Positions 2,170 through 26,538 of a stretch of DNA of 64,000 bases are shown one piece after another. The stretch comes from a bacterium. GTDB taxonomy: Bacteria; Patescibacteriota; Microgenomatia; Levybacterales; UBA12049. The translations under genes were made by a program, and so were the position numbers. The DNA is taken from the NCBI GenBank assembly GCA_021777565.1, contig JAJYDJ010000001.1:248856-312855 (forward strand). Direction: 5' to 3'. The notes beneath the pieces are model-generated. The model did not search any database and was not told where the DNA came from. It saw nothing but the letters and a program-made list of their open reading frames with translations. Numbering within the stretch: position 1 is the first letter of the stretch; every line of letters starts with the position of its first letter.

Positions 2170-3513
2170 CTAGATGCCCATGGCTGCGGCGTTAAATCGT
2201 GCTCCCCGATCTTTATAGTCCTTAAAGAGTCCAAAGGAAGCTGCTGCCGGTGAGAGTAAAATGACGCCGCCTTTTGGTGTGTGCTCACGCGCCAGTCGCA
2301 TACACTCATGCATGGTTTGTTCTTCTGGCGTCAGTATGGTCCCAGCGAATTTGGATTGAGTGAGCGCGTGATGGATATTGTCTCGCACCTGACCAATGAG
2401 AATACAGGTTTCAACATTTTCTGAGTTGGCAATTTGCTCAGCCAATTTGTCATAGGAGAGACCTTTGTCTGATCCTCCCAAAATGATAGTCAGTGGCTCA
2501 TGAAAAGCAGTGATGGCGGCACTGGTGGCATCAGGGTTGGTAGCCGCACTATCGTTGTAGTAGGTGAATTTCCCATCGTTGCCAACATATTGCAAACGAT
2601 ATTCAAGGCCACTGAATGAAAAAATAGTGTTTTTGATATCGTCCACACTCGCACCAGCAAGCGTTGCCAAGGTGAGTGCCATCAAGATGTTTTCCAAATG
2701 ATGTTCTCCTCGTAAGGTGAGATCTTGGATATTTCCAATGTGAGTTTTTTTATTAACATTGAGGTAGATCGTATTATTTTGTGCAAACGCGCCTTGTACT
2801 TCACGTTTGGTACTGACAAGATAAACGTGTGCTTTGGTAAGTGATGAAAAGCTGAGTGATGTCTCATAATCAGCATTACAGACTACAAAATCTGATGACT
2901 TTTGATACCTGACAATTGGTTTTTTTGTTTCAATATATTTTTCTCTAGTGCCAAACCAATCAAGATGATCAGTTGTAATGTTTAACACCCCCGAGATATG
3001 GGGACTGATAGTCAGGTCAATTAGTTGTGGCGCACCCATTTCCAAAACTACCCAACTCTCTCCTGTGAGTTGTGGCAAAAGTGTCAGGACTGGTTTACCA
3101 ATGTTGCCAGCGAAAAAGACATGTTTGCCAGCTGTTTTGAGAATCTCATAGGTTAGGGTTGCGGTGGTCCCCTTGCCTTTGGTGCCAGTTACACCTATAA
3201 CCCGAGCAGGACAAAGCTCAAGAAAGAGCTGCATGGCACTGGTGATATGGGCTCCTTTTTTTTCTGTTTCCAGAATCTCAGGCAACAATCTATTAAATCC
3301 AGGAGAGCGAAAAATGATATCAAATCCAGTGAGGCCTGCTTTTAAATAATCAGGCCCCGATATCACTTGTGCATCTAGAGTCTCCCCCAATGCTTCTTTT
3401 TCTTTGCGATCAAAAATCGTGATATCGGCACCTTTCCCTTGCAAAAATTGCAGAACGTCTTGGCCTTCAATGCCAAATCCTAAAATAGCAATTTTTTTAT
3501 TGCTTACTTCCAT
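2170..3513 (-). CDS. murD: UDP-N-acetylmuramoylalanine--D-glutamate ligase
   Basis: KIAILGFGIEGQDV Rossmann N-terminus, Mur-ligase GTKGKGTT P-loop, and a C-terminal LLSPAAASFGLFKDYKDRGARF that is MurD-typical. Start taken at MEVSNKK (ATG 3513), 10 nt overlap with the murE stop. ORF-track alternative start is 3570. Confidence 0.85.
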   Translation of the reverse strand: MEVSNKKIAILGFGIEGQDVLQFLQGKGADITIFDRKEKEALGETLDAQVISGPDYLKAGLTGFDIIFRSPGFNRLLPEILETEKKGAHITSAMQLFLELCPARVIGVTGTKGKGTTATLTYEILKTAGKHVFFAGNIGKPVLTLLPQLTGESWVVLEMGAPQLIDLTISPHISGVLNITTDHLDWFGTREKYIETKKPIVRYQKSSDFVVCNADYETSLSFSSLTKAHVYLVSTKREVQGAFAQNNTIYLNVNKKTHIGNIQDLTLRGEHHLENILMALTLATLAGASVDDIKNTIFSFSGLEYRLQYVGNDGKFTYYNDSAATNPDATSAAITAFHEPLTIILGGSDKGLSYDKLAEQIANSENVETCILIGQVRDNIHHALTQSKFAGTILTPEEQTMHECMRLAREHTPKGGVILLSPAAASFGLFKDYKDRGARFNAAAMGI

Positions 3514-4985
3514 TGGAGTCGTACCTTTTCTCCTTTCAGTATTTTTTTCACTGCCTCTTGGTCTGACCAAGGATATTCTACACCTCTGTATGCAAGACTT
3601 TTCTCATGCCCTTTGCCACAGATGATGACGGTATCTCCAGGCTGTGCTTGTGTTATCGCTTGTTCAATTGCCTCTCCCCGATCCTCGATTATGTTGTATT
3701 TGTCACTCACTACCCCTGAGACCATCTGATCAAAAATGTCTGTGAGTGGTTCATGTCGTGGGTCTTCAAGAGTAAAAATACTCATGTCAGCAAGACGAGT
3801 CGCGACTCGTGCCATCTCGGGACGTTTGGTTGCGTCTCGTTGCCCGGCACATCCAAAGACAACGATAAGTTTGCCTTTGGTCGTCTTTCTCACCGTCGTA
3901 AGCGCTTGCTCGAGTGCGTTGGTCGTGTGTGCAAAATCAACAAGAACGCGTACAGGTTTCTCCTGCATGATTTCCATACGTCCGGTGATACCGGTGAACT
4001 TTTTCACTGCGCTCTGAATATCTTCCCAAGTAACACCTAGGCTTCTGGCGGCCGTGGCAGCGGCAAGAATATTCTGGATATTATAGGTGCCGGTAAGTTT
4101 AGTCGTGAACGGAATTGTTTTAGTATGTTCATGCATGAGAAAATGCATTCCCTTTGTTTGCATGGTGATATCACTGGCATAGAGATCAGTTTTATTCGTT
4201 ATGCTGTAGGACAGAATGGTACTTCCTTTCTGTGTTTTATTTTTGAGGATGTCATAAGATGGGTCATCGGCATTAAGAATATTAACCTCTGTGTTTTCAA
4301 AAAGTCTTGCCTTGGTATCACGGTAATTCTCAAATGTTTTGTGATAGTTGAGATGCTCTGGCGTGATATTGGTAATGATAGCCATATGATATTTCACTCC
4401 GGCAACACGTTCTTGAGCAATTCCTTCTGAGGTAGTCTCGAGAATGGCAATTTCTTGCTGTTTTTTAACCATCAGTGAAAGAAGTTTTTGTAGCGGCAGC
4501 GCATCAGGATTGGTCGTGTGCAGCCCTGTCTCGTATGCCCGTCCATTAATTTTGGCATTGACAGTGGAGATCATACTGACACGTCTTTTGGCTTGTCTAA
4601 GCATGGCATACAAAAGGTTGACCGTAGTTGTCTTGCCATCAGTCCCGGTGACACCAATAACGGTCAACTTTTCTGATGGATTGTCATACCAATTGGAGGC
4701 AAGAAACCCAAGCGCTTTGCGACTGTCTGGCACCTGGATGTAGGTAGTATGTTTTAACTCTAATTTTTCAGGATCTTCTTCACCTACGATTGCCACAGCA
4801 CCATTATCAATCGCTTGTGGGATAAATTGATGAGCATCCATCAAAACACCACGAACTGCGACGAAAAGGAAGCCTGGTTTTACGAGTCGAGAATTTTCTG
4901 TCAAACCAGAGATCGTGATGTCTCTGTCCCCTACGTGTTTGAGAACAGATATGCCGTTGAGCAGTGTGGAAAGTTTTTTCTTCAT
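3504..4985 (-). CDS. murE: UDP-N-acetylmuramoyl-L-alanyl-D-glutamate--2,6-diaminopimelate (or L-Lys) ligase
   Basis: Mur-ligase three-domain layout with GVTGTDGKTTT P-loop. Position between murB and murD. Confidence 0.85.
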   Translation of the reverse strand: MKKKLSTLLNGISVLKHVGDRDITISGLTENSRLVKPGFLFVAVRGVLMDAHQFIPQAIDNGAVAIVGEEDPEKLELKHTTYIQVPDSRKALGFLASNWYDNPSEKLTVIGVTGTDGKTTTVNLLYAMLRQAKRRVSMISTVNAKINGRAYETGLHTTNPDALPLQKLLSLMVKKQQEIAILETTSEGIAQERVAGVKYHMAIITNITPEHLNYHKTFENYRDTKARLFENTEVNILNADDPSYDILKNKTQKGSTILSYSITNKTDLYASDITMQTKGMHFLMHEHTKTIPFTTKLTGTYNIQNILAAATAARSLGVTWEDIQSAVKKFTGITGRMEIMQEKPVRVLVDFAHTTNALEQALTTVRKTTKGKLIVVFGCAGQRDATKRPEMARVATRLADMSIFTLEDPRHEPLTDIFDQMVSGVVSDKYNIIEDRGEAIEQAITQAQPGDTVIICGKGHEKSLAYRGVEYPWSDQEAVKKILKGEKVRLQWK

Positions 4986-6010
4986 AGATATCTGACGTAC
5001 TCGACTTCGGGTAGTAAGGTAATGCCAAATTGATCGTTCACCTGCTTTGTAATTCTCTCTGCCAACTTTTTGACATCACTCGCTGTCGCCTGTCCAGTTG
5101 CATTGGTGATGACCAAACTATTTTGTTCATACACTTGTGCTCCGCCTTCTCTTACACCTTTTAATCCTGCTTTCTCGATGAGCCATCCGGCAAAAAGTTT
5201 GATAGCATCAGTTGAAAGTTTTATAGAAGGCACATCGGGGAATGTCCGTTGTACTCTCTGAAAAACTTTGTTAGTGACAACTGGGTTTTTGAAAAATGAT
5301 CCAGCACTTCCGATAACAGTCGGGTCGGGTAATTTAGTTTTCCTTAAAAATAAAATCGCTTCTCTGAGATCTTGTACTGTTGGATGGTGTATGTGGTTTG
5401 TTTGTAAGTATGCTACTAATGACTGATAGGTTGGCTGTGGTGGTCGAGATTTCGTAAGACGAAACGAGACGTCGGTGATGATATAGCGGTCTGGGAAGTG
5501 CTTGAAAAGGCTGTTGCGATAGGAAAAGTTGACATCTTCTTTAGAGAGTGTGACCCAAGAGTGTGTGTCTCTATCATAGGCAGTGAGTGAGATAAATGCA
5601 TCTTTACATTCTTGTCCATAGGCACCGATATTTTGTACGGGTGCTGCACCAACACTACCAGGAATGCCTGAAAGACACTCAAGTCCTGAGAGACCGTTCA
5701 CAACCGTGTGTGCTACAAGATCATCCCAGAGAACACCAGCATCAGCAGTCACGACTATTTCCCCAGGTGTCAGAGTATCTTGGGTGATGGTATTGTTTTT
5801 CATGTGTAAAAAGCAGGCATTTTGGTGTTCATCACTGATGAGAAGATTACTCCCCTCCCCGATAACAAAAAGTGGTAATTGTTTCTCCTGTGCAAAATGC
5901 ACTGCCCGCACGACACTTTCTGGTGAGTCAGCCGTCAGCAGGTACCGAACAGTTCCTCCGATGTGAAAGGACGTGTAGTTGGTGAGTGATATGTTCTCTT
6001 TAATTTCCAT
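4982..6010 (-). CDS. murB: UDP-N-acetylenolpyruvoylglucosamine reductase
   Basis: FAD-binding MurB N-terminus (NYTSFHIGGTVRYLL) and MurB C-terminal domain. Start taken at MEIKEN (ATG 6010) just upstream of the murC stop; the ORF-track alternative at 6082 would overlap murC by 82 nt. Confidence 0.8.
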   Translation of the reverse strand: MEIKENISLTNYTSFHIGGTVRYLLTADSPESVVRAVHFAQEKQLPLFVIGEGSNLLISDEHQNACFLHMKNNTITQDTLTPGEIVVTADAGVLWDDLVAHTVVNGLSGLECLSGIPGSVGAAPVQNIGAYGQECKDAFISLTAYDRDTHSWVTLSKEDVNFSYRNSLFKHFPDRYIITDVSFRLTKSRPPQPTYQSLVAYLQTNHIHHPTVQDLREAILFLRKTKLPDPTVIGSAGSFFKNPVVTNKVFQRVQRTFPDVPSIKLSTDAIKLFAGWLIEKAGLKGVREGGAQVYEQNSLVITNATGQATASDVKKLAERITKQVNDQFGITLLPEVEYVRYL

Positions 6011-7400
6011 ATTCTTTCGCAATAGTTCGTATCGTGTGGTGAATCTCCCCTCCTCCGCCACACATAGCGATGACAACATCATCTTCTTTTGCGTTTTTTG
6101 TTACCCACTGGATAATGGCATCAAAGGTAGGTGGCGCACTGACGTTGGGATGATCGATACTCTGTGCCACATCCTGATTGGTCAGTCCAAAAGTTTCTTG
6201 ATCTCTTCCTGGTGAGATAGGTGCGATGATCACTTCATCCGCATCGCTGGCAACATCTTTATAGAGAGGCAAAAAGGCTTTTGTTCGAGAAAAACTATCT
6301 GGTTGGATAATAGCGATAATACGACTGTCTGGATGACGTTGTCTGAGTGCTTTCAAGGTTTCTCGAACTGCTGTGGGATGATGCGCATAATCATCATAAA
6401 AAATGACTCCTCCCGACTCCCCTACTTTCTCAAGTCGCATACCGATGCCGGTAAATGTGGCAAGAACATGTTCTGTCTCTTCAGTTTTTATGCCATACAA
6501 ATGTGCCAGGATAATCACTCCAAGTGCATTAGAAACAGTAAATAGTCCAGGCAGTGGCACAATGAACGTATGATGAAAGCTTTTCTGATTGGTAACGGTG
6601 AATGCTGTTCCACTTGGTGATGTCGTTATATCTTCTGCATGAAAGATGACGTGTACTGATGGGTCTTGTCTGTTCTCTCTGGTATAGCCGATGATATTTA
6701 TTCCCTCAGAGTTCTTTTTTATCAGTTTCAGAAGATGTCTATTGCCGGGGTCATCAAGGTTGATGATCAATTGTTTTTTCCCAGTAAGGTTAGCAACATG
6801 TTTTTGAAAACTTTCAAAAAGTTGCTTCTCGGACGTGAAAAAATCTGGATGATCAAGCTCAATGTTGTTCAGAATAATAGTCTCAGGATGATAGTATTGA
6901 AAATTGTCATAAAACTCATCTGACTCAGTAATATGTATGTCTCCTTTCCCAACACGATAATTTTCATGCCACGCATCAATAGTTGCTCCTATCATGACAC
7001 TGGGATCTCTGCCTGCATTCTCAAAGACGAGTGCTGCCATGGCAGTAGTGGTAGATTTGCCGTGTGTTCCAGCAATACAAATAACTGTTTTGTCTTTTTG
7101 AATATACTCGGCAAGAAACTCCTGCCAGGTGACGACTTTTTTTGCTTTCTGTACTTCTTCGGGAAGAGTCTCAAGCACCAGTATTGCAGGGCTTACTACC
7201 AAGAGATCAACGTCTTTGACATGATCACGATGGTGCCCAGTCTCAACAGGAATGCCACTGTTACGAAGTTCTTGGATATAGGGTGTGTTGGTATCACGAT
7301 CACAGCCTGAAACGGAATATCCGTTGGCTTTTGCCATCATGACAACGCCAGAGATGCCCCTGCCGCCTATGCCCATAAAATGAACGCGTTTTTCTTTCAT
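6000..7400 (-). CDS. murC: UDP-N-acetylmuramate--L-alanine ligase
   Basis: HFMGIGGRGISGVV N-terminus, IAGTHGKSTT P-loop, and Mur-ligase C-terminal domain. Confidence 0.9.
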   Translation of the reverse strand: MKEKRVHFMGIGGRGISGVVMMAKANGYSVSGCDRDTNTPYIQELRNSGIPVETGHHRDHVKDVDLLVVSPAILVLETLPEEVQKAKKVVTWQEFLAEYIQKDKTVICIAGTHGKSTTTAMAALVFENAGRDPSVMIGATIDAWHENYRVGKGDIHITESDEFYDNFQYYHPETIILNNIELDHPDFFTSEKQLFESFQKHVANLTGKKQLIINLDDPGNRHLLKLIKKNSEGINIIGYTRENRQDPSVHVIFHAEDITTSPSGTAFTVTNQKSFHHTFIVPLPGLFTVSNALGVIILAHLYGIKTEETEHVLATFTGIGMRLEKVGESGGVIFYDDYAHHPTAVRETLKALRQRHPDSRIIAIIQPDSFSRTKAFLPLYKDVASDADEVIIAPISPGRDQETFGLTNQDVAQSIDHPNVSAPPTFDAIIQWVTKNAKEDDVVIAMCGGGGEIHHTIRTIAKEYGN

Positions 7401-8686: not shown

Positions 8687-8728
8687 GGAGCTTACCTACT
8701 ATACTCCTCTTTTCAGACAGGATGCAAG

Positions 8729-10036
8729 TTAGTGAGGAGTTTGTGGGACGTGTCTCTCAAGAACCCGCGCAATACGTGGTTGCGGTCTTCGAAGGACAAG
8801 ATTGGCGCCGGCATAGACGGCAGTCGTAGCCTGCTCCGCCCACACGCCGATGAGCGCATACAGTTGCCAGGTTGAAAGTGGTATCCCCAGAGAGCCGGCG
8901 AGCGTATCAATCAGTCCCAGCCCCATCGCGACTCCTGATCCGTAGAGTGCGCCATTGGCAATATGATTCTCTGCCTGGCCACCTGCGGCAAGAATCAGTG
9001 GATGTAAGAATCGGTTCAGTGCCGGAGAGTCCTGTGGAATGAGTTTGAACAGTTTACCAACAATACCGACCTGCTCACAGGCGTGCTGATATTCCTCTGG
9101 GCTTAGCATACGACCTTTGTGTGTGGTAAGCGCTTCATTTACCACATGCAAGGTGTTCATAAAGGCATGGGTCAAAAGTCCTGTTGCGGCAAACCCTAAA
9201 ATCCCGAAATTTGATGATAGGAAAATAGCTAATCCTACAACGGTGAGTGTCTCCCCCACTGGTGACTGAATAAAGTCAACGACCCGTTGTGGAATTGTCT
9301 TAACAAAGTCTCTTAAGCGCTCAACCATGGGAGTAGTTTTTTCAGATGTCTTGTGTTCATCTTCATGATGGTGATGCCCCTCATGGAGATGCTCATGCGT
9401 GTGCTCGTGCTCCTCGTGGTGAACATGTTCTTTTGCGAGAAAACGATGGGCAAATTTTTCTCTCATTTCATCAAAGAAACGATTAATTTTATGTGCATTA
9501 ACGGCCAGTACCTCAAAAAGCCCGTGTTGCGTTACCTGAATAATGACTTGTTGGGCCAGCTGTGGGATATCCTTGATCAGTGACAAAGCACCAGGAATAA
9601 GTGTACCGACAAACGTGAAAAATGCCGCGGTTTTGAGAATGCCTACCTCACGTGCATGAGAAGAGACGATACCAACAATAGCACCAACGACAGCAGGATT
9701 TTCACTGAGCATGAGATTGACCGCATCTACTGATTGCTCTGGCTGTGTGGCGATTTCTGGTGCTTGACCTTGAGCATCTACGGCCCTTCGCCTCACAAAG
9801 ACTTGGACATCCTCATGATGGTCATCTTCATCATGGTCATGATGTTCGTGGTGTTCATGCTCGTGGCTGTGCCCATGCGCATGACCGTGCGGATCGCCTA
9901 CTTCAACTCCCCTCACAACAAGATCAAGCTGAGGAAGATGCGTGTCCTCACTGAGTGAATCTGGCGCATGTCTTCTGGTAGCGTCTTCAAATGCACGAGT
10001 GACGTCTGGTGATAGGTGAAGTGTGATTTCGGTCAC
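8729..10036 (-). CDS. Histidine-rich polytopic membrane protein of unknown function (possibly a DUF389/TIGR00271-like hydrophobic-domain protein; family not verified).
   Basis: 435-aa ORF with two acidic His-rich tracts (HGHAHGHSHEHEHHEHHDHDEDDHHED and HVHHEEHEHTHEHLHEGHHHHEDEH) and at least four hydrophobic helices (AVVGAIVGIVS..., TLTVVGLAIFLSSNFGILGFAATGLL, GALYGSGVAMGLGLIDTLAGSLGI...). Confidence 0.5.
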   Translation of the reverse strand: MTEITLHLSPDVTRAFEDATRRHAPDSLSEDTHLPQLDLVVRGVEVGDPHGHAHGHSHEHEHHEHHDHDEDDHHEDVQVFVRRRAVDAQGQAPEIATQPEQSVDAVNLMLSENPAVVGAIVGIVSSHAREVGILKTAAFFTFVGTLIPGALSLIKDIPQLAQQVIIQVTQHGLFEVLAVNAHKINRFFDEMREKFAHRFLAKEHVHHEEHEHTHEHLHEGHHHHEDEHKTSEKTTPMVERLRDFVKTIPQRVVDFIQSPVGETLTVVGLAIFLSSNFGILGFAATGLLTHAFMNTLHVVNEALTTHKGRMLSPEEYQHACEQVGIVGKLFKLIPQDSPALNRFLHPLILAAGGQAENHIANGALYGSGVAMGLGLIDTLAGSLGIPLSTWQLYALIGVWAEQATTAVYAGANLVLRRPQPRIARVLERHVPQTPH

Positions 10037-10076
10037 GATGATGAATTATAGGACAAGCGTGAAGAACTTACAAGCC

Positions 10077-12605: not shown

Positions 12606-13136
12606 CTATTTGGAGTTGTATCGCTCGATGCACTCGCGGATGATGACTTTAGCAGCTTCACTATCTCCCCACCCGAGGACTTTGGTGGTACCAGGTTTCT
12701 TTAAATCTTTGTAATGATTAAAGTGGAATTCGAGTTTTTGTTTCCACCTTTCACCAAGATCTTCAAGAGTCTTGATCATGTTACCATTGTCACGATTATC
12801 TGCGGGTACGGCAATAACTTTATGATCCATTTCTCCATCGTCTTCAAAATTCAGTACACCGATCACTCGTCCTTTAAGATGGACTCCTGTTGGGATTGGT
12901 TCTGGGCAAATCATCAAGACATCAAGAGGATCTTTGTCTTCATCAATAGTCTGTGGAATGAACCCGTAATTTGTTGGTTTTGGGAAGATTGCTGGCTCAA
13001 CTCGATCAATTTCAAAGGTAGCAGTATCTACTCGATATTCAATCTTTAAAATTGAACCTTCTGGGATCTCAATAACGACATTGATCTCTCCTTCATCAAC
13101 GTTCCCTGGTGTCAAAACTTTATTAAAATCAGCCAT
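12606..13136 (-). CDS. ppa: Inorganic pyrophosphatase (family I)
   Basis: Family I PPase core (EIPEGS..KIEYRVD, DPLDVLM, VIAVPADN) between gyrA and gyrB. Start taken at MADFNKV. Confidence 0.85.
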   Translation of the reverse strand: MADFNKVLTPGNVDEGEINVVIEIPEGSILKIEYRVDTATFEIDRVEPAIFPKPTNYGFIPQTIDEDKDPLDVLMICPEPIPTGVHLKGRVIGVLNFEDDGEMDHKVIAVPADNRDNGNMIKTLEDLGERWKQKLEFHFNHYKDLKKPGTTKVLGWGDSEAAKVIIRECIERYNSK

Positions 13137-13168
13137 ATATTTATTATACACACGTATATCTCATATTG

Positions 13169-15124
<1,956 letters not shown>

Positions 15125-15202: not shown

Positions 15203-16516
15203 GTGAGAAAGATACGAAAACTTATTCGCTCACTGATCCTCTGGTATCTTCGTTTCTTCGCGCGCATGCGACTAAAAAGATTGCATCCTGTAATTGTTGG
15301 CATAGGTGGTGCTAGTGGAAAATCTAGTGTCGCGACCCTTACTGCTGCAGTCCTATCTGATTATTGTACTGTCCTCTATCAAGAAGGGAAAAATAGTGAC
15401 ATCGGTATCCCCTTGGCAATTCTTGATTTGAAAATCACGAGTAATACCTGGCATAATTGGGTGAATCTTCTCCTGAGAGCGCCACTCGCTGCTATCTCGC
15501 GCAAGACGTCTTATGACGTGTATGTTGCTGAAATGGGTATTGATGGACCCACCCCACCTGATAATATGGGGTATCTTCTTGATCTTTTTGTTCCAGATAT
15601 TGCACTTCTGACCAACATCGCATTTGAACATAGTGCAAACTTTCCTGGGTCTACGGACGCGGAAGTATTTGAATCAATTGCTCGTGAAGAGTTGTCCTTG
15701 TTGCACTCGGTTGCCCAAAAAGATGGTATGGTAATTCTGAACGCTGATGATCCACGCATCATGCAAGAGAAGCTTGAGAAACATCACACAACTACCTACT
15801 CAATCAAAGATCATGCTGATCTTTTTATTACCAGACTGAGTATTACCAAACAAAAATTTGAATTAGTCTTGTCTTATGAGAGAAGAAAACATACCGTCAC
15901 ACTCCCATTTGGGCTTCCTGCACATTATGCACAAACTATCCTGGCAGTATTATCAATAGCACTTGCTCGTCATATTCGCCTCTCTGATGCCATTATGTCC
16001 CTTGAAAAACATGTCTCCCTCCCCGCTGGGAGAGCAACGATTTTCAACGGTATCAAAGAAACAACTCTTATCGATAGCTCATATAATTCATCCTTGCAGC
16101 CACTTTTGGATATGCTTGATTTTCTCAATACCATTCATGGTCGTTCCCGTCGGGTGGCTATCCTGGGAGATATGCGTGAGCTGGGTGAACAAACGCAAAG
16201 TCTTCATGAACAAGCTGCGCGTAAGATTGTTGAAACCGTAGATATGGCCATCCTTATTGGGCCAGCAATGCGCGAATATGTTCTCCCGGTCTTGAAATTG
16301 CAAAAGATACCTGTCTTGTCATTTATGACATTTAGTGATGCGCGAAGTGCCCTGTTACAAAACATCAAAAAAGGAGACATGATTTTGGTGAAGGGATCGC
16401 AAAATACACTTTTTCTTGAACGAGTTGTTGAACTTCTGCTCGCCAACCCGATGGATGCGGCCAGACTGTGCCGTCGAGGGAGTATGTGGGATCGCAAAAG
16501 AGCTCAATCAAAATGA
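15203..16516 (+). CDS. murF: UDP-N-acetylmuramoyl-tripeptide--D-alanyl-D-alanine ligase (MurF-like, short N-terminus)
   Basis: Mur-ligase central P-loop VGIGGASGKSSVA and MurF-like C-terminal domain (VAILGDMRELGEQTQSLHEQ). Opposite strand and separate from the other mur genes. Confidence 0.7.
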   Translation: MRKIRKLIRSLILWYLRFFARMRLKRLHPVIVGIGGASGKSSVATLTAAVLSDYCTVLYQEGKNSDIGIPLAILDLKITSNTWHNWVNLLLRAPLAAISRKTSYDVYVAEMGIDGPTPPDNMGYLLDLFVPDIALLTNIAFEHSANFPGSTDAEVFESIAREELSLLHSVAQKDGMVILNADDPRIMQEKLEKHHTTTYSIKDHADLFITRLSITKQKFELVLSYERRKHTVTLPFGLPAHYAQTILAVLSIALARHIRLSDAIMSLEKHVSLPAGRATIFNGIKETTLIDSSYNSSLQPLLDMLDFLNTIHGRSRRVAILGDMRELGEQTQSLHEQAARKIVETVDMAILIGPAMREYVLPVLKLQKIPVLSFMTFSDARSALLQNIKKGDMILVKGSQNTLFLERVVELLLANPMDAARLCRRGSMWDRKRAQSK

Positions 16517-17157
16517 GTAAGCAGTGTCTCCTCGAGAGCCATGCGAGCACTTACATTGGTCGAAGTAACTATCTCTTTCAATTTCAGGACTGCTATGAGT
16601 AATAAAGATTTCTCTTTCTCCCCTGCGACAAGATCACGGTGTAATACTTGTTCTGCTTTTTTAAGAAATACGAGAAATTCTTCTTTCTCTTTGGTGAGTT
16701 GTTGTGCGCTGTATAACTTTTCTCCAATTGTCCCCGACTGCCACGTTGTAAGCGTTCTCTGTATGGTTTCTACATCCTCGTCACTGATTGTAGGTGGCAC
16801 CTCAGTACGTTTAATAATCTGACATCGAGATGCTACTGTTGGCAACAGTGCACCAAGTGACGTGGTAAGAAGAAAAAAATACACATGCTCTGGCGGCTCT
16901 TCAAGAAGTTTTAAGAGTGCATTTTGTGCTGGTATGGTAAGTGTTTGCGCCTGTGGGATGATGATTGCTTTGTGTTGCCCTTGGAGTGGAGCAAGCTGCG
17001 TGTCAAGTTGGAGCTGTTTTACTTCTGCGATGCCACTAATATCGGCAAGTTGAACATCTGCTGGGTGTAAGTGCAGTGTTTGGATATATTCTTGTACCTG
17101 TGCGAGGTTATTCTCTGCATCTTGTGAGACAAAAAGAGTCGTAGTCATTGATTGCAT
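16504..17157 (-). CDS. holB: DNA polymerase III delta-prime subunit, short form lacking the N-terminal P-loop region
   Basis: NALLKLLEEPPEHVYFFLLT and SRCQ motifs of clamp-loader delta'. Only 217 aa. 13-nt convergent overlap with murF. Confidence 0.7.
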   Translation of the reverse strand: MQSMTTTLFVSQDAENNLAQVQEYIQTLHLHPADVQLADISGIAEVKQLQLDTQLAPLQGQHKAIIIPQAQTLTIPAQNALLKLLEEPPEHVYFFLLTTSLGALLPTVASRCQIIKRTEVPPTISDEDVETIQRTLTTWQSGTIGEKLYSAQQLTKEKEEFLVFLKKAEQVLHRDLVAGEKEKSLLLIAVLKLKEIVTSTNVSARMALEETLLTHFD

Positions 17158-17187
17158 TATAGTGCAAAGTTGACTACCATAATAGTA

Positions 17188-18903
17188 ATGCCCACTGATA
17201 CAAATCCTGCTCGCACTGTTTTTGATGTGTTGGTTGCTGATGGCGTGATTAGTAAAGATCAGGCCGATCAGCTTCGTGTCAAAGCGGCTACTGACAATAT
17301 CCCGCTTGATAAACTTTTAGAAACTTCTACCGTTGTTAATCCTGAACAATTGGCACAGGCGCGTGCCAAAATGCTGGGCATCCCTTACGTGCCTCTTGCA
17401 TCTACGGCATTTTCTCCTGAAGCACTAAATTTTCTCCCTCAGCCAGTGGTTGAGAGATTTCAGCTGATCCCGTTTGCTTATGATGACAGCGAGAAATCAC
17501 TTTCTATCGCGATGGCCCATCCTGAAAATGTTGAAGCACTGCAATTTGTGCAACAGAAGACAGGATTACACATCAAAACATTCGCAGCATCAGCTCAGGA
17601 AGTTGCCAGGGCTATTGCAACCCAATATCGTCAGGAATTGGTTGGAGAAGTTGGAAAAGCTATTAAAGAAACTGAAGAGCTCAAGCCAGTCAAGACTATT
17701 GATAGTGCAAAAATTGGTGAAATTATTAAAGAAGCACCAATTGCAAAAATTGTCTCCACGATTCTGGAATACGCCGTCATGAATCGCGCATCAGATATTC
17801 ACATGGAACCGCTAGATGATCGAGTGCGTGTCCGTTATCGTATTGATGGTATTCTCTATGATCGTTTGACACTTCCAAAATCTGTGCAAGAAGCAGTTGT
17901 CTCTCGTATTAAAATTCTGGCTGAAATGAAAATCGATGAACATCGTACGCCACAGGATGGTCGTTTTAACTATAAATACGCAGATAAGGAAGTAGATCTT
18001 CGTGTGTCCGTGCTGCCAACCGTCCATGGAGAGAAGATCGTTATGCGTTTACTTCGTAAATCTGGTGGGATTCCAACACTTCCAGAATTAGGGCTTGCCG
18101 GTATCGCATTGAAAAATCTAGAGACCGCAATGCTGAGACCTCATGGTATCATCATCGTCTGCGGACCTACTGGAAGTGGTAAAACAACGACTCTGTACTC
18201 TGTCCTATCCAAGCTCAATACACCAAATGTCAACATCATGTCTCTTGAAGATCCAGTCGAATACGAAATTGCCGGCGTCAATCAGGTGCAGATCAATCCA
18301 GGCGTTGGGCTTACCTTTGCCTCGGGGCTTAGAGCTTTCTTACGTCAGGATCCAAATGTTATTCTGGTCGGAGAAATTCGTGATAATGAAACAACAGATT
18401 TGGCTATTCAGGCCGCTCTGACGGGTCATTTGGTGTTCTCAACCTTGCATACCAGCTCAGCTGCAGGCGCCCTCCCTCGTCTTCTGGATTTGGGTGCTGA
18501 AGGATTTTTGCTTGCCTCGACTATGAATGCGTTGGTTGGACAACGTATTGTCCGTAAAATTTGCACTCACTGTAAAGTTGCCTACACTCCTGCGCAAGAA
18601 GTAGTAACTGAAATTCAGCAAGTATTGGGGAAGCTCTTTCCAGCACAAGGAGCAGTTCAGTTATATAAAGGACAAGGCTGCAGCGAATGTGGAGACTCAG
18701 GATACGTTGGTCGTATTGGTATCTTTGAAGTACTCCCAGTAACCGACAGGATTAGTAAGCTTATGCTTGCCCACCCTGAGGCCTCGGCACTGGAAGAAGA
18801 AGCGATCAAAGAAGGAATGATTACGATGCGCCAGGATGGCTACATGAAGGTATTACAAGGAATTACAACGATTGAAGAAGTGTTACGTGTGGCGCAAGAA
18901 TAA
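17188..18903 (+). CDS. pilB: Type IV pilus assembly ATPase PilB (GspE family)
   Basis: T2SSE N-terminal domains, Walker A GPTGSGKTTT, Asp/His boxes, and tetracysteine motif CTHCKVAY...CSECGDSGYVGR. Start probably MPTDTNP (17188); the ORF-track start at 17152 would overlap holB. Confidence 0.9.
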   Translation: MPTDTNPARTVFDVLVADGVISKDQADQLRVKAATDNIPLDKLLETSTVVNPEQLAQARAKMLGIPYVPLASTAFSPEALNFLPQPVVERFQLIPFAYDDSEKSLSIAMAHPENVEALQFVQQKTGLHIKTFAASAQEVARAIATQYRQELVGEVGKAIKETEELKPVKTIDSAKIGEIIKEAPIAKIVSTILEYAVMNRASDIHMEPLDDRVRVRYRIDGILYDRLTLPKSVQEAVVSRIKILAEMKIDEHRTPQDGRFNYKYADKEVDLRVSVLPTVHGEKIVMRLLRKSGGIPTLPELGLAGIALKNLETAMLRPHGIIIVCGPTGSGKTTTLYSVLSKLNTPNVNIMSLEDPVEYEIAGVNQVQINPGVGLTFASGLRAFLRQDPNVILVGEIRDNETTDLAIQAALTGHLVFSTLHTSSAAGALPRLLDLGAEGFLLASTMNALVGQRIVRKICTHCKVAYTPAQEVVTEIQQVLGKLFPAQGAVQLYKGQGCSECGDSGYVGRIGIFEVLPVTDRISKLMLAHPEASALEEEAIKEGMITMRQDGYMKVLQGITTIEEVLRVAQE

Positions 18904-18906
18904 TAT

Positions 18907-19974
18907 ATGGCGATTCAAGATTTATTGGAAGTAACCGTGCAGAATAGAGCCTCAGATTTACATCTGATGGCTAATACCACGCCGTACCTTCGTATTGATG
19001 GAGCTCTCGTCCCACTTCAGAGTGTTGGTGCGCTCACGCCAGCGATGGTTGAAGAGATGCTTTTTACTATCATGCTCCCCGAGCAGAAAACACTCCTTTT
19101 GGCAAACAAAGAGCTTGATTTTTCAGTCCCTTATGTGAGTAAAGATGGAACACAACGAGGACGGTTTCGTGTCAATGCGTATTATCAAAAGGCTACGATC
19201 GCAGTGGCATTCAGATACCTTACAGAAGCTATTGCCGGTATTGATGATTTGCATCTCCCAAAGATTTGTCACTCATTTACTGGATTAAAGCAAGGACTGG
19301 TTTTGGTAACTGGTCCAACTGGTCAAGGGAAATCTACTACGCTCGCTGCCATGACTCAAGAAATCAATTTGACTCGACCTGCACATATTATCACTATTGA
19401 AGACCCAATTGAGTATGTTTATCCACAAGGGAAAAGTATTATTTCTCAACGTGAAATGAAGATTGATACTCACTCTTGGAGCATGGCTCTTCGTAGCGCT
19501 CTGCGTGAAGATCCTGATGTAGTACTTATTGGAGAAATGCGTGATAGTGATACGATGGCTGCAGCAATGACGATTGCAGAGACTGGACACTTGGTTTTCT
19601 CAACACTGCATACCAACTCTGCTTCCCAGAGTATTGATCGTATTATCGACTCATTCCCAGAGCATCAGCAAATGCAGATTAGGACACAGTTATCTTTTAT
19701 TTTGAAAGGCATTATTTCACAAAGACTTCTTCCCCAAATTGGTGGTGGCAGAATCCCTGCCGTTGAAATATTAATTGGCAATCAAGCAGTCGCAAGTAAT
19801 ATTCGTGAGGGGAAGACTCATTTGATTGACTCTATTGTCCAAACATCTTCAGATCAAGGGATGGTTCCACTTGAAGCATCCTTGGCACAATTGGTGATGG
19901 CGGGGACGGTCACGCTGGAGACTGCAAAAGGGTATGCGCTCCATGTTGACGAATTCCTCAGACTAATTTCCTAA
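18907..19974 (+). CDS. pilT: Type IV pilus retraction ATPase PilT
   Basis: 355 aa, Walker A GLVLVTGPTGQGKSTT, PilT-type C-terminus, no N-terminal GspE domains. Confidence 0.85.
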   Translation: MAIQDLLEVTVQNRASDLHLMANTTPYLRIDGALVPLQSVGALTPAMVEEMLFTIMLPEQKTLLLANKELDFSVPYVSKDGTQRGRFRVNAYYQKATIAVAFRYLTEAIAGIDDLHLPKICHSFTGLKQGLVLVTGPTGQGKSTTLAAMTQEINLTRPAHIITIEDPIEYVYPQGKSIISQREMKIDTHSWSMALRSALREDPDVVLIGEMRDSDTMAAAMTIAETGHLVFSTLHTNSASQSIDRIIDSFPEHQQMQIRTQLSFILKGIISQRLLPQIGGGRIPAVEILIGNQAVASNIREGKTHLIDSIVQTSSDQGMVPLEASLAQLVMAGTVTLETAKGYALHVDEFLRLIS

Positions 19975-19975
19975 T

Positions 19976-21181
19976 ATGAAATTTATTTATAAAGCAGCTT
20001 CACTAGATGGAAAGCTTATTGAAGGAGAGATGGATGCTCGTGACAAAGACGAAGCAGCATTTTTCCTCAAAAACAAGAACTACATTCCAGTCATATTGAA
20101 AGAAAAATCAGATAAAATCTTTTCCCTGTCTTCTTTTATGAAAAAGAGACAGTCGACAAATGACTTGGTCCTTTTTACCAGACAGCTTTCTTCTATGTTG
20201 ACTGCGGGACTAACTCTTATGCAGTCTCTCACTATTTTACAGGAGCAACTTGAGGATAATTCACTATCCCCGATTGTGAATTACTTGATTACGCAGGTCA
20301 GTGAGGGAAAAAGTCTAGCTGAAGCTATGGCTCATTATCCAAAACTATTCTCCCCTGTCTATCTCTCCTTGATCCGTGCTGGAGAGACTTCAGGCTTTTT
20401 AGACAAAATTCTTGATCGTCTGGCAAATAACCTGGAAAAGAGTCAAAAGCTGCGTAGTACTATCTCCTCGGCACTTCTCTACCCTATTATTATCGTTATC
20501 TTAATGGTTGTGGTCATGGGACTTATGATGGTGTTTGTTATTCCTCAGCTTACTTCGCTGTATGCCAATTTAGGTATTGACCTGCCACTCCCAACGAGAA
20601 TTGTCGTTGGCGTCTCTAATTTCACCATCAACTTCTGGCCTTTGGTGATTGGTGTGGTTGTTCTTATCATATTTGGGTATAACCGCTGGATGAAAACAGA
20701 GACAGGCAGACTGATTCGTGATCAGGTAGTTATTAAAATCCCAGTATTTGGTCGACTTGTCGTGCTTTCTTTATTGACAGAGTTTGTCAGAACCCTGGGG
20801 CTTCTGATTGGTGCAGGTACACTGGTAGTAGAATCTCTCCAAGAAGGTGCTGATGTCGCGGGGAATCTGGTATATAAAAATGCAATTTTGGATATTGCGG
20901 ACAGAGTAGAAAAAGGTATTGGTATTGGCGATGCGATGAGTACCTATCCAATTTTTCCTCCTATTATGGTGCAAATGGTGCGTATTGGTGAACAGACAGG
21001 AAAACTTGATGAATCACTCTTGAAAGTCTCAGAATATTTCGAACGTGAAGTTGAGACAGGGGTTAAGGGACTAACGACGGCAATAGAACCATTTATTATG
21101 ATTATTTTGGGTATTGGTGTAGCGTTTCTTATTATTTCTGTTATTACGCCAATTTACAGCCTGACGTCAAGTATCCAATAG
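19976..21181 (+). CDS. pilC: Type IV pilus platform protein PilC (GspF family)
   Basis: Two GspF repeats, three TM helices, 401 aa, immediately after pilT. Confidence 0.85.
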   Translation: MKFIYKAASLDGKLIEGEMDARDKDEAAFFLKNKNYIPVILKEKSDKIFSLSSFMKKRQSTNDLVLFTRQLSSMLTAGLTLMQSLTILQEQLEDNSLSPIVNYLITQVSEGKSLAEAMAHYPKLFSPVYLSLIRAGETSGFLDKILDRLANNLEKSQKLRSTISSALLYPIIIVILMVVVMGLMMVFVIPQLTSLYANLGIDLPLPTRIVVGVSNFTINFWPLVIGVVVLIIFGYNRWMKTETGRLIRDQVVIKIPVFGRLVVLSLLTEFVRTLGLLIGAGTLVVESLQEGADVAGNLVYKNAILDIADRVEKGIGIGDAMSTYPIFPPIMVQMVRIGEQTGKLDESLLKVSEYFEREVETGVKGLTTAIEPFIMIILGIGVAFLIISVITPIYSLTSSIQ

Positions 21182-21230
21182 AGTTCCCTCTTGACAGCAG
21201 GAAAATGAATGTGTTTGACTAGATATAGGT

Positions 21231-21812
21231 ATGAAAACAAACGTAAAGCGATTCCTGCAAAGTAAAGCTAAAAAAGGCTTTACCCTTATTGAACTTTTGG
21301 TCGTTATTGGCATTCTTGGTATTCTGGCTTCTGCATTGGTTGCGACCATCGATCCTTTCGAACAGCTTAAGAAAGCAAATGATGCGAACGTGAAGAACAT
21401 TTTGGTTGAGTTTAACAACGCAACTATTCGTTACTATGCGACACACAATGCGTACCCATGGGATTCTGCAGCAAATGGCGGCGGTGGATGTAATACAAAT
21501 ACTGCGCCATCTGAGATGCAACTGTCTGGAACTGCGGGGACAAGTTGTGTGACTGCCTTGGTGGGAGATAATGAGCTAAAACAGTCATTCTCTGCTGCTA
21601 CTGGTGACCTTGCCAAGATTTATGTTACCTATGATTCAACCAACAATCTGGTCATTGGTTGTTTCCAACCTCAATCCAAATCTGGTCAGAATGACGCAAA
21701 CACAAAGTTTAATGGTGACGGTACTGCAGGGTCAGGCACGAAATCTTGTGCAACCGATTCTCTGGGTAATCCAGCGAACATGAACGGCGGCTGCTTCTGG
21801 TGCACACGCTAA
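21231..21812 (+). CDS. Major type IV prepilin (class III signal peptide with 16-aa leader)
   Basis: MKTNVKRFLQSKAKKG|FTLIELLVVIGILGILASALVA has Gly-1, Phe+1, Glu+5 and a hydrophobic alpha1-N. First and most upstream pilin after pilC. Paired Cys residues in the C-terminal half. Confidence 0.85.
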   Translation: MKTNVKRFLQSKAKKGFTLIELLVVIGILGILASALVATIDPFEQLKKANDANVKNILVEFNNATIRYYATHNAYPWDSAANGGGGCNTNTAPSEMQLSGTAGTSCVTALVGDNELKQSFSAATGDLAKIYVTYDSTNNLVIGCFQPQSKSGQNDANTKFNGDGTAGSGTKSCATDSLGNPANMNGGCFWCTR

Positions 21813-22588
21813 TGCTGCAATCAGGAATTACTATACTTTCCTTTATTCTTGGGATATGTGTTGGCTCGTTTCTCCTCGTAGTTGTAACACGACTTGCAGA
21901 GAATAAATCTTTTCTTTCAGGTAGATCAGCGTGCGATGCGTGTGGCCACACTCTTTCTCCATTTGATCTCGTTCCCCTCTTCTCCTACATCCTTCTCAAG
22001 GGCCATTGTCGCTATTGTCACTCAGTATTGTCCCCATTCTACTGGATAGTAGAACTTGTAACAGGCTTTATTTTTGCACTTACGAGCCTCAGTCTGATGC
22101 CACTTTTGCCATCAGTGCTCTTTTTCGAAATGTTGATTGGTATGTGGTTTGTCATCGGGGGTCTAGAAGTTATTTTTTTCTCCGATCTGTGGTATGGATA
22201 TATCCCCGATGGTGCAACAATCTTGATTGGGATTATTGGTATCTTACATGCCTGGCAATTTCATGCTCTTTTCTCGTCTCTTTTTGCCGGGATTGGGGCA
22301 GGTCTCTTCTTCTTACTTCTGCTAGTTGGCACCAAAGGACGAGGTATGGGGTGGGGAGATGTAAAATATGTTGTCGCAATGGGATTTCTTTTAGGTATTG
22401 GGTCAACTTTGGTTGGTCTGTATATTGCCTTTATCACAGGAGCACTCGTCGCTCTTGCGCTGGTGATTTTTCATAAAATGAAGCTTCGGGGTAGCACTAT
22501 TCCATTTGGGCCATTTTTGGTATTTGGTACGCTTGCAGCACTTACCTATGGTGAGGTACTCTGGAAGTGGTATCTACATTTTATATGA
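21800..22588 (+). CDS. pilD: Prepilin peptidase (A24 family) PilD
   Basis: N-terminal zinc-binding CDACGH...CRYCH tetracysteine, polytopic membrane topology, and catalytic Asp regions. Overlaps the pilin stop and the next start (ATGA). Confidence 0.85.
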   Translation: MHTLMLQSGITILSFILGICVGSFLLVVVTRLAENKSFLSGRSACDACGHTLSPFDLVPLFSYILLKGHCRYCHSVLSPFYWIVELVTGFIFALTSLSLMPLLPSVLFFEMLIGMWFVIGGLEVIFFSDLWYGYIPDGATILIGIIGILHAWQFHALFSSLFAGIGAGLFFLLLLVGTKGRGMGWGDVKYVVAMGFLLGIGSTLVGLYIAFITGALVALALVIFHKMKLRGSTIPFGPFLVFGTLAALTYGEVLWKWYLHFI

Positions 22589-23088: not shown

Positions 23089-23126
23089 AGCATTTACGTT
23101 TTCCAAAGAAATGGGTATGCTAATAA

Positions 23127-24405: not shown

Positions 24406-24409
24406 AAGT

Positions 24410-26497: not shown

Positions 26498-26538
26498 GTT
26501 CATTGACAGTCATAAGGCATGCTTGATAGGCTAAAGGT

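What the first reader, a model, noticed from the sequence alone, without database searches (positions are those of the whole stretch)
8729..10036. Membrane protein with two acidic poly-His tracts wedged between murA and gyrA
A 435-aa ORF has at least four hydrophobic helices and two long His/Glu/Asp-rich low-complexity loops (more than 20 His in about 60 residues). Such tracts bind Ni/Zn/Co (compare HypB, UreE, ZnT loops, Hpn). A polytopic protein carrying them suggests a metal buffer, sensor or transporter accessory. It follows the mur operon on the same strand with a 43-nt gap, so it may be co-transcribed with cell-wall precursor genes. I could not match it to a known family; DUF389/TIGR00271 is a guess.
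Basis: partly seen in the sequence, partly recalled or inferred. Interest (0 to 1): 0.5.

Follow-up and report, generated by a model that had tools for sequence, protein, structure and literature searches.

The report
Orphan histidine-rich membrane protein gene
This is a real gene, seen in only two uncultured bacteria, for a probably membrane-embedded protein with two histidine-rich loops that both copies keep; it probably binds metal ions, but it belongs to no known family and its function is untested.

Summary
The ORF is real: window 8729-10036, minus strand, 435 aa, 41 His. Of these, 26 lie in two acidic tracts (residues 47-77 and 203-230). It sits between gyrA and murA.

The gene lies upstream of murA, so it leads the mur genes rather than following them. 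It also has its own promoter-like site 8 nt before the GTG start.

Codon usage matches the host genome, a Woesebacteria-like Patescibacterium. Pfam, NCBIfam, PADLOC and PDB give nothing beyond low-complexity His matches; the one PHROGs hit overlaps tract 2. The DUF389/TIGR00271 guess is not supported.

An exhaustive HMMER scan of 1.84 billion representative proteins found one homolog, P0002 (455 aa, 33% identity, E 2e-27). It comes from a different organism and a different gene neighbourhood. P0002 has both His tracts at the same positions, with shared HGHxHGH and HEGHH cores. It also shares an H-x3-N-x2-H-x3-E helix, a glycine-zipper helix and a Q/Q/H/E helix.

So the tracts are conserved rather than drift, and the link to mur/gyr is not conserved.

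Best reading, inferred and not shown: a helical membrane protein whose cytoplasmic His loops bind Zn/Ni/Co-type ions, acting as a transporter or a membrane-tethered metal sink. AlphaFold models were unusable. Interest is modest.

The parts
8729..10036 (-). The 435-aa ORF (GTG start, TAA stop). It is an orphan His-rich, predicted helical membrane protein, identical to database protein P0001.
   Evidence: Codon-usage score in frame is 0.256, equal to the mean of 52 other genes in the window; off-frames score -0.22 and -0.16.
10045..10073 (-). Promoter-like site TTGTAA-17 nt-TATAAT in the 40-nt gyrA-ORF gap. The -10 box ends 8 nt before the GTG, which suggests a leaderless or near-leaderless transcript.
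   Evidence: 10 of 12 matches; one site found against 2.6 expected in shuffles, so the position matters more than the count. One search shows the same -10-to-start spacing at many other genes in the window. Searches show GATAAT at the same distance before the P0002 gene.
9899..10036 (-). N-terminal region, residues 1-46. It is soluble, has no signal-peptide-like hydrophobic stretch, and is modelled as strand-helix-strand. It is poorly conserved in P0002.
   Evidence: low confidence; 12 of 71 columns identical.
9806..9898 (-). His tract 1, residues 47-77: GDPHGHAHGHSHEHEHHEHHDHDEDDHHEDV (13 His, 11 Asp/Glu). The HGHxHGHxHxHE core is shared with P0002.
9804..9840 (.). Imperfect 15-nt tandem repeat (2.5 copies) that encodes the acidic tail HDHDE/DDHHE/D of tract 1. 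P0002 lacks this tail, so it is probably an expansion by slippage.
9575..9715 (-). Hydrophobic region 1, residues 108-154. There are two hydrophobic stretches in this protein but only one (residues 161-179) in P0002.
9446..9565 (-). Conserved helix, residues 158-197: P158, Q163, Q167, Q170-H171-G172-L173, E175, then D189, R192-E193-K194, H197.
9347..9430 (-). His tract 2, residues 203-230: EHVHHEEHEHTHEHLHEGHHHHEDEHKT (13 His, 9 Asp/Glu). 11 of 28 columns are identical in P0002, including the exact stretch HEGHH.
9116..9250 (-). The most conserved block, residues 263-307 (20 of 45 identical). It has a hydrophobic helix, a turn at S274-G278, then a helix with GFAAxGL and H290-x3-N294-x2-H297-x3-E301. 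On an ideal helical wheel those four polar residues fall within a 60-degree arc.
8969..9115 (-). Polar helical segment, residues 308-356, with the conserved motif VGxVxKxLFKxxPxDS. It is rich in Lys/Arg in both proteins.
8792..8968 (-). C-terminal hydrophobic pair, residues 357-415: conserved N357-H358, a glycine zipper G362-x3-G366-x3-A370-x3-G374, a G384-I-P386 turn, and E401-Q402.
8687..8728 (-). The 42-nt gap to murA. The scan found no terminator-like site here, so read-through into murA-murC-murB-murE-murD is possible.

Best explanation
The ORF is a genuine, lineage-restricted gene of a Woesebacteria-like Patescibacterium. It encodes a mostly helical protein that is probably embedded in the membrane.

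Shown:
- It is coding.
- It has exactly one detectable homolog among about 15 billion public proteins.
- That homolog keeps both His/acidic tracts in place.
- It also keeps a set of polar residues inside or next to the hydrophobic helices: Q163/Q167/H171/E175, H290-N294-H297-E301, N357-H358, and a glycine zipper.

Inferred:
- The two (H-x)n/acidic loops lie on the cytoplasmic side and bind divalent transition-metal ions (Zn, Ni or Co type; there are almost no Cys or Met).
- They act as a metal sink or antenna for a conserved His/Asn/Glu site in the membrane helices, as the His-rich loops of ZIP, CDF and RcnA transporters are thought to do.
- The protein, probably as an oligomer held by the glycine-zipper helix, would then move or hold metal ions at the membrane.
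- It appears to be transcribed from its own promoter as a leaderless mRNA and may read through into murA, but this position is an accident of this lineage and not a functional link.
For: Real gene:
- In-frame codon score is 0.256, equal to the gene mean of 0.256; off-frames score -0.22 and -0.16; GC3 is 0.43 against 0.40 +/- 0.05.
- The protein is identical in 8 contigs from several samples.

Homolog:
- P0002 has E 2.2e-27 and 33% identity, spanning query 49-424.

Tracts:
- They are conserved in position and partly in sequence: 13 of 42 columns in tract 1 and 11 of 28 in tract 2, with 13/13 His here against 10/11 in P0002.
- The distance from the end of tract 1 to the conserved Pro that starts the next helix is 84 residues here and 81 in P0002 (my count).

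Conserved motifs:
- H-x3-N-x2-H-x3-E and G-x3-G-x3-A-x3-G are present in both proteins.
- H290, N294, H297 and E301 sit at 100-160 degrees on an ideal helical wheel.

Hydrophobic segments:
- Summed apparent insertion energies are 1.6-2.5 kcal/mol for three segments, and these are hydrophobic in both proteins.

Side of the membrane:
- There is no N-terminal hydrophobic signal.
- The long segment that carries tract 2 (residues 155-262) holds 13 Lys/Arg, and the N-terminal segment that carries tract 1 holds 7.

Chemistry:
- His-rich loops as a cytosolic 'metal sink' in ZIP transporters are described in PMC6189677.
- Profile hits to the RcnA, DmeF, ZnuA, HypB and UreE families fall only on the tracts, showing that the composition matches known metal-binding loops.

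Promoter.
Against: - There is no experimental or homology evidence for any function. All family hits are low-complexity matches far below the curated cut-offs (24 bits against 195 and 250).
- AlphaFold confidence was 41.8 and 35.3, so there is no usable fold, and the fold search returned nothing.
- Topology is unsettled. Every loop is rich in Lys/Arg, which does not fit a simple alternating multi-span topology. P0002 has one hydrophobic stretch where this protein has two. The hydrophobic segments are only borderline for membrane insertion.
- With only two sequences, residues may appear conserved simply because there has been too little divergence.
- Neither neighbourhood contains an annotated metal-related gene.
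Confidence: 0.45

Rival explanations
1. It is a membrane-tethered metal buffer, store or metallochaperone that does not transport. The His loops hold Ni/Zn/Co at the inner face of the membrane, like a tethered HypB/UreE/Hpn-type tract. The hydrophobic helices serve only as an anchor, possibly as hairpins dipping in from the cytoplasmic side.
For: - Every soluble segment is rich in Lys/Arg, which fits a topology in which all loops face the cytoplasm.
- The hydrophobic segments are short and come in pairs with conserved turns (S274-G278 and G384-I-P386).
- The tracts match the His regions of HypB and UreE at the level of composition.
Against: - Conserved His, Asn, Glu and Gln residues inside or next to the hydrophobic helices, and a conserved glycine zipper, are more than a plain anchor would need.
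- No hydrogenase, urease or other Ni/Co-enzyme gene is seen in either neighbourhood.
Confidence: 0.25
2. The tracts are not about metals. They would be pH-sensitive or simply flexible acidic linkers in an envelope or structural membrane protein, possibly connected with cell-wall synthesis because the gene leads the mur genes.
For: - The gene lies 42 nt ahead of murA with no terminator-like site between them.
- In related Woesebacteria the slot upstream of murA holds a cell-wall gene, a class B penicillin-binding protein.
- Part of tract 1 is a recent 15-nt repeat expansion.
Against: - The homolog is not next to mur or gyr genes.
- None of 114 related murA loci carries a homolog.
- The tract cores (HGHxHGH, HEGHH) are conserved at 33% overall identity. 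Alternating H-x-H is the usual pattern of metal-binding loops (general knowledge).
Confidence: 0.15
3. It is a divergent member of a known metal-transporter or membrane family (RcnA/NicO, CDF, ZIP, HupE/UreJ or DUF389) that sequence methods fail to recognise.
For: Weak hits to the RcnA and DmeF models (E about 1e-5).
Against: - Those hits cover only the His loops and score 24 bits against cut-offs of 195 and 250.
- The non-tract parts, scanned alone, hit nothing in Pfam or PDB.
- The signature motifs of CDF (HxxxD), ZIP (HNxxD, HExxH) and NiCoT occur only inside the tracts, never in the hydrophobic helices.
- There is no DUF389 or TIGR00271 hit.
Confidence: 0.05
4. It is a spurious or decaying ORF that makes no functional protein.
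For: There is no Shine-Dalgarno sequence, the start is GTG, and the gene is an orphan in the databases.
Against: - In-frame codon usage is native.
- A full-length 33%-identical homolog exists in another organism, conserved in blocks.
- Absence of a Shine-Dalgarno sequence together with a -10 box next to the start is the norm for genes in this window.
- The ORF fills the gyrA-murA interval with gaps of 40 and 42 nt.
Confidence: 0.03

Closest known systems
RcnA / NicO family nickel-cobalt efflux proteins (NCBIfam NF007454)
   Same: A helical membrane protein with a long His/Asp/Glu-rich loop. This was the best-scoring named model (E 1.5e-5).
   Different: The match covers only residues 177-232 (the loop), at 24.3 bits against a cut-off of 195. 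There is no similarity in the membrane helices. This protein has two tracts where RcnA has one.
Cation diffusion facilitators with a His-rich cytosolic loop (DmeF, NF033827; ZnT/CzcD type)
   Same: An (H-x)n loop on the presumed cytoplasmic side of a membrane protein, and weak similarity to the DmeF loop (E 2e-5).
   Different: 24.1 bits against a cut-off of 250, on tract 1 only. There is no Cation_efflux Pfam hit. HxxxD/DxxxD motifs are absent from the hydrophobic helices. No C-terminal cytoplasmic domain was detected.
ZIP transporters (the His-rich loop between TM3 and TM4, described as a 'metal sink' in PMC6189677)
   Same: The concept: a disordered His-rich cytosolic loop next to an intramembrane site built from His, Asn and Glu.
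   Different: No Pfam ZIP hit. There is no HNxxD motif, and HExxH occurs only inside the tracts and never in a hydrophobic helix. It does not have eight clear membrane helices.
Soluble His-rich nickel/zinc binders (HypB N-terminus, UreE C-terminus, the ZnuA and ZrgA loops, the CbiX tail)
   Same: The composition of the tracts; weak hits fall on the tracts.
   Different: All hits are below the cut-offs and confined to low complexity. Those proteins are soluble or periplasmic, with unrelated folds.
DUF389 / TIGR00271
   Same: Only that both are uncharacterised membrane proteins.
   Different: No hit in Pfam or NCBIfam at E <= 10, for the whole protein or for its parts.

Membership tests
DUF389 / TIGR00271 | Significant match to the family profile (Pfam DUF389; TIGR00271 in NCBIfam) | tested here: not met
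   No such family is listed at E <= 10 for the whole protein or for its non-tract parts.
RcnA / NicO nickel-cobalt efflux | Profile match over the membrane helices at or above the curated cut-off (195 bits for NF007454) | tested here: not met
   24.3 bits, covering only residues 177-232, which is the His tract. There is no NicO Pfam hit.
Cation diffusion facilitator (CDF) | Cation_efflux profile match | tested here: not met
   DmeF model: 24.1 bits against 250, on tract 1 only. No Pfam Cation_efflux hit.
Cation diffusion facilitator (CDF) | HxxxD/DxxxD metal site in the membrane helices | tested here: not met
   In P0001 the motif occurrences lie in the His tracts, plus one at residue 7. In P0002 they lie in tract 2 and in the polar segment at residues 328-336. 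None is in a hydrophobic helix.
ZIP (SLC39-like) | ZIP profile match | tested here: not met
   No Pfam hit.
ZIP (SLC39-like) | HNxxD and HExxH motifs in adjacent membrane helices | tested here: not met
   HNxxD is absent. HExxH occurs only in the tracts.
ZrgA zinc uptake protein (PF10986) | Profile match at or above 27.4 bits | tested here: not met
   10.0 bits for P0001 and 18.6 bits for P0002, on tract 1 only.
HypB / UreE type Ni metallochaperones | GTPase domain (HypB) or UreE fold in addition to the His tract | tested here: not met
   Only the His-prefix or tail models were hit, at E 0.055 and 0.52. No domain hit.
Any family with a solved structure | Sequence or fold similarity to a PDB chain | tested here: not met
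   Sequence: only tract or noise hits. Fold: best E 0.8 with TM-score <= 0.17, obtained with a model of pLDDT 41.8, so the fold test is not informative.
Metal-binding membrane protein (functional class, not a homology family) | Direct binding or transport of metal ions | not testable with these tools
   Needs biochemistry: IMAC, ITC or ICP-MS, and transport assays.

The most novel reading that the evidence does not exclude
A previously undescribed and extremely rare family (two members among about 15 billion predicted proteins) of metal-ion transporters or channels in Patescibacteria. It would be built from hydrophobic helical hairpins carrying an H-x3-N-x2-H-x3-E site and a glycine zipper, fed by two cytoplasmic (H-x)n/acidic loops, and unrelated in sequence to the ZIP, CDF, NicO, NiCoT or HupE families.
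Probability: 0.3. Interest if true: 0.45.

Novelty: new variant of a known kind. Interest (0 to 1): 0.3.

Why it matters
If the inference holds, this is a new sequence family that does what His-loop metal transporters or metal sinks do. It would sit in a group of tiny-genome, host-dependent bacteria whose metal economy is almost unknown.

In practice it is a clean example of a conserved orphan protein, and it offers testable residues: H290, N294, H297, E301, and the two loops.

Its reach is limited. Only two organisms are known to carry it. Nothing ties it to a wider pathway, and the adjacency to gyrA and murA is not conserved.

Tried and rejected
- **Word-indexed homolog searches.** The full, the His-masked and the two-sequence-profile queries each returned only the query sequences themselves.
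- **Masked query for the exhaustive search.** I used the full protein after a local test showed that HMMER's bias correction removes pure His-tract scores.
- **Orthologs by synteny.** I examined 34 genome loci and 80 metagenome loci around murA from Woesebacteria/Microgenomates. They contain no homolog and no gyrA upstream.
- **Pattern scans.** Scans of metagenome and viral contigs with the conserved C-terminal block found nothing.
- **Internal duplication.** BLASTP hinted at one (tract plus hydrophobic module, twice; E 0.019). The profile-profile comparison rejected it (probability 0.2%).
- **Structure.** AlphaFold2 with one and with two sequences gave pLDDT 41.8 and 35.3. The Foldseek PDB search gave no match better than E 0.8.
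- **Family libraries.** PADLOC gave nothing. PHROGs gave one weak hit to an unknown-function family, overlapping tract 2.
- **RNA families.** Rfam finds no RNA family in or near the ORF.
- **Other His-rich ORFs.** Those seen in the relatives' loci are off-frame junk.
- **Paralogs.** There is none in the window.
- **Literature.** A search for His-rich membrane proteins in Patescibacteria found no papers. The YHYH domain next to the homolog has no useful literature.
- **dN/dS.** I did not attempt it, because at 33% identity the synonymous sites are saturated.

Full report
**1. What is in the sequence**

The finding corresponds to one ORF at window 8729-10036 on the minus strand: 435 codons, with a GTG start preceded by an in-frame stop three codons upstream.

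The protein has 41 histidines, 9.4% of its residues, against 2.3% in the other long ORFs of the window. Twenty-six of them lie in two acidic tracts:
- Tract 1, residues 47-77: GDPHGHAHGHSHEHEHHEHHDHDEDDHHEDV.
- Tract 2, residues 203-230: EHVHHEEHEHTHEHLHEGHHHHEDEHKT.

Three segments are clearly hydrophobic (136-154, 264-282, 367-385). Three more are marginal (108-126, 279-297, 382-400). The N-terminus has no signal-peptide-like stretch.

On the coding strand the gene order is gyrB, ppa, gyrA, this ORF, murA, murC, murB, murE, murD. The ORF lies downstream of gyrA (40-nt gap) and upstream of murA (42-nt gap).

**2. Is it a gene?**

Yes, on four lines of evidence.
- A codon-usage log-odds score trained on 52 other ORFs of the window gives 0.256 in frame. 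This equals the mean of those genes (0.256 +/- 0.096). The other two frames score -0.22 and -0.16.
- GC3 is 0.43, against 0.40 +/- 0.05 for the other genes. The raised overall GC comes from first codon positions, that is, from the amino-acid composition.
- The same protein is encoded on eight contigs, including a 953-kb contig and NCBI MAG GCA_027424575.1. DNA identity over 20 kb is 99.985-100%.
- Rfam finds no RNA family there.

**3. Host organism and transcription signals**

MurA's nearest relatives are Woesebacteria/Microgenomates (Patescibacteria) at 62-67% identity. The contig size of 953 kb fits that group.

The 40-nt gap before the ORF holds TTGTAA-17 nt-TATAAT, and the -10 box ends 8 nt before the GTG. 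On the count alone this is not significant: one site was found, against 2.6 expected in shuffles.

The placement, however, is the rule in this window. Many first genes of transcription units have TATAAT, TACAAT or TATACT starting 12-15 nt before the start codon and lack a Shine-Dalgarno sequence. gyrB is one of them. This pattern suggests leaderless transcripts, which is my inference.

No terminator-like site lies between the ORF and murA. The ORF may therefore be the first gene of a unit that continues into the mur genes.

**4. Family searches**

- Pfam, NCBIfam, PADLOC and the PDB sequence set give nothing beyond matches confined to the His tracts. PHROGs gave one weak hit to an unknown-function family that overlaps tract 2. 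The named hits score far below the curated cut-offs: RcnA 24.3 bits against 195, DmeF 24.1 against 250, ZrgA 10 against 27.4.
- The non-tract parts, scanned alone, hit nothing.
- The signature motifs of CDF, ZIP and NiCoT transporters occur only inside the tracts and never in the hydrophobic helices.
- AlphaFold2 gave pLDDT 41.8 with one sequence and 35.3 with two. Only the secondary-structure impression is usable: a small strand-helix-strand N-terminus, then all helices. The Foldseek search returned nothing better than E 0.8.

**5. Relatives**

- Word-indexed searches of 5.8 billion clusters found only the protein itself, with or without masking of the tracts.
- An exhaustive phmmer scan of 1.84 billion representatives found exactly one other protein, P0002: 455 aa, E 2.2e-27, 33% identity, aligned over query residues 49-424.
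- A profile built from the two proteins found no more. Pattern scans of metagenome and viral contigs also found none.
- None of 114 murA loci from related bacteria contains a homolog or has gyrA upstream. In most of the genome-derived loci, the gene ahead of murA encodes a protein of about 570 aa. The one I scanned is a class B penicillin-binding protein.

P0002 sits on a 5.9-kb contig from one of the same sample series. Its contig has a lower GC3 (0.25-0.33), so it comes from a different organism. Its neighbours are a 274-aa orphan, a YHYH-domain protein and a PTPS_related membrane protein. Its start codon is preceded by GATAAT at the same distance as in the window.

**6. What the one homolog tells us**

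Both tracts are present in P0002 at the same places.
- Tract 1 shares HGHxHGHxHxHE and has 10 His in P0002.
- Tract 2 shares HxHxHEGHHxHxD and has 11 His in P0002. It has 11 of 28 identical columns.
- The distance from the last His of tract 1 to the conserved Pro that opens the next helix is 84 residues here and 81 in P0002 (my count).

The acidic tail of tract 1 (HDHDE/DDHHE) is encoded by an imperfect 15-nt tandem repeat and is absent from P0002. So the tract cores are conserved and the tails vary.

Outside the tracts the best-conserved blocks are:
- Residues 158-197: Q163, Q167, Q170-H171-G172-L173, E175, R192-E193-K194, H197.
- Residues 263-307 (20 of 45 identical): GFAAxGL followed by H290-x3-N294-x2-H297-x3-E301. 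On an ideal helical wheel these four polar residues fall within a 60-degree arc.
- VGxVxKxLFKxxPxDS.
- N357-H358 followed by the glycine zipper G362-x3-G366-x3-A370-x3-G374, and then a G-I-P turn.

A hint of internal duplication (BLASTP E 0.019) was rejected by the profile-profile comparison (probability 0.2%).

**7. Topology**

This could not be settled. Every long polar segment is rich in Lys/Arg in both proteins. That does not fit a simple alternating multi-span arrangement. It does fit hydrophobic hairpins with all the loops, including both tracts, on the cytoplasmic side. The conserved turns at S274-G278 and G384-I-P386 agree with hairpins.

However, P0002 has a single hydrophobic stretch where this protein has two. 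The statement that both tracts face the cytoplasm is therefore an inference from the positive-inside rule and the lack of a signal peptide. It is not a result.

**8. Most likely mechanism**

Shown:
- The gene is real, conserved and orphan.
- Its product has hydrophobic helices, two conserved His/acidic loops, and conserved His, Asn, Glu and Gln residues on helix faces.

Inferred:
- The loops bind borderline divalent metals (Zn, Ni or Co type). The protein has one Cys and P0002 has none.
- They serve as a local sink or antenna for a site formed by the conserved intramembrane residues. This is the role proposed for the His-rich loop of ZIP transporters (PMC6189677) and, from general knowledge, for the CDF and RcnA loops.

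I rate 'metal-binding membrane protein, transporter or tethered sink' at about 0.45 for the transporter-leaning version. A further 0.25 goes to the pure buffer or chaperone version. A non-metal role gets about 0.15, hidden membership of a known family about 0.05, and a spurious ORF about 0.03.

**9. Comparison with known families**

It works most like the His-loop metal transporters (RcnA/NicO, CDF, ZIP). It fails every membership test that could be run: profiles, signature motifs and domain architecture. It is best described as a new, very small sequence family that shares a design feature with them.

**10. Verdict**

The metal idea is strengthened by conservation of the tracts. The DUF389 guess and the functional link to the mur genes are not supported.
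- Novelty: a new variant of a known kind.
- Interest is modest (0.3). CPR genomes are full of orphan membrane proteins, nothing here overturns expectations, and function rests on composition plus a single homolog.

Noticed in passing
window-wide; e.g. upstream of the genes at 30740-31402(-), 32023-34053(-), 34184-35377(-), 44143-45198(-), 48299-48850(-), 49674-50534(-), 15203-16516(+) and 13169-15112(-): Many genes at the head of transcription units have a near-consensus -10 box (TATAAT, TACAAT or TATACT, often preceded by TGG or GG) starting 12-15 nt before the start codon, with no Shine-Dalgarno sequence. This suggests that leaderless mRNAs are widespread in this Patescibacterium. The same layout precedes the homolog's gene in L039.
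   Followed up: partly
window 12606-13151 (-): An inorganic pyrophosphatase gene (Pfam Pyrophosphatase) sits directly between gyrB and gyrA, with gaps of only 6-17 nt. I thought this placement unusual but did not compare it with other genomes.
   Followed up: no
L005-L038 and L040-L119, upstream of murA (e.g. L011 4246-5955): In most of the Woesebacteria/Microgenomates genome loci I listed, a gene for a protein of about 570 aa lies just upstream of murA. The one I scanned (L011) is a class B penicillin-binding protein (Transpeptidase + PBP_dimer). None of the related loci had gyrA there. The gyrA-ORF-murA junction therefore looks like a rearrangement specific to this lineage.
   Followed up: partly
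window 9804-9840: An imperfect 15-nt tandem repeat (2.5 copies) encodes the acidic tail of His tract 1 (HDHDE/DDHHE). The homolog lacks it, so it is probably a slippage expansion and a possible site of length polymorphism.
   Followed up: partly
L039 1868-5662: The homolog P0002 is followed by a 274-aa orphan protein, a YHYH-domain protein (PF14240) with an N-terminal membrane anchor, and a PTPS_related/DUF6541-like polytopic membrane protein. I could not establish whether these form a functional unit with P0002.
   Followed up: partly
window 17152-29561 (+): A type IV pilus / type II secretion-like cluster: two T2SSE ATPases and a T2SSF platform protein, followed by about a dozen ORFs of 160-340 aa that I did not scan (possibly pilins).
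   Followed up: no
window 61342-63975 (-) and 40659-41957 (-): Two large ORFs (877 aa and 432 aa) have no Pfam hit at E <= 1e-5. They are further uncharacterised proteins in the window.
   Followed up: no
window 15203-16516 (+), 2170-7400 (-): Four Mur-ligase-domain genes lie in or next to the cluster: three in the mur cluster, which I labelled murC, murE and murD from Pfam domains and mutual BLAST, plus a divergently transcribed one beside gyrB. murB lies among the first three.
   Followed up: no
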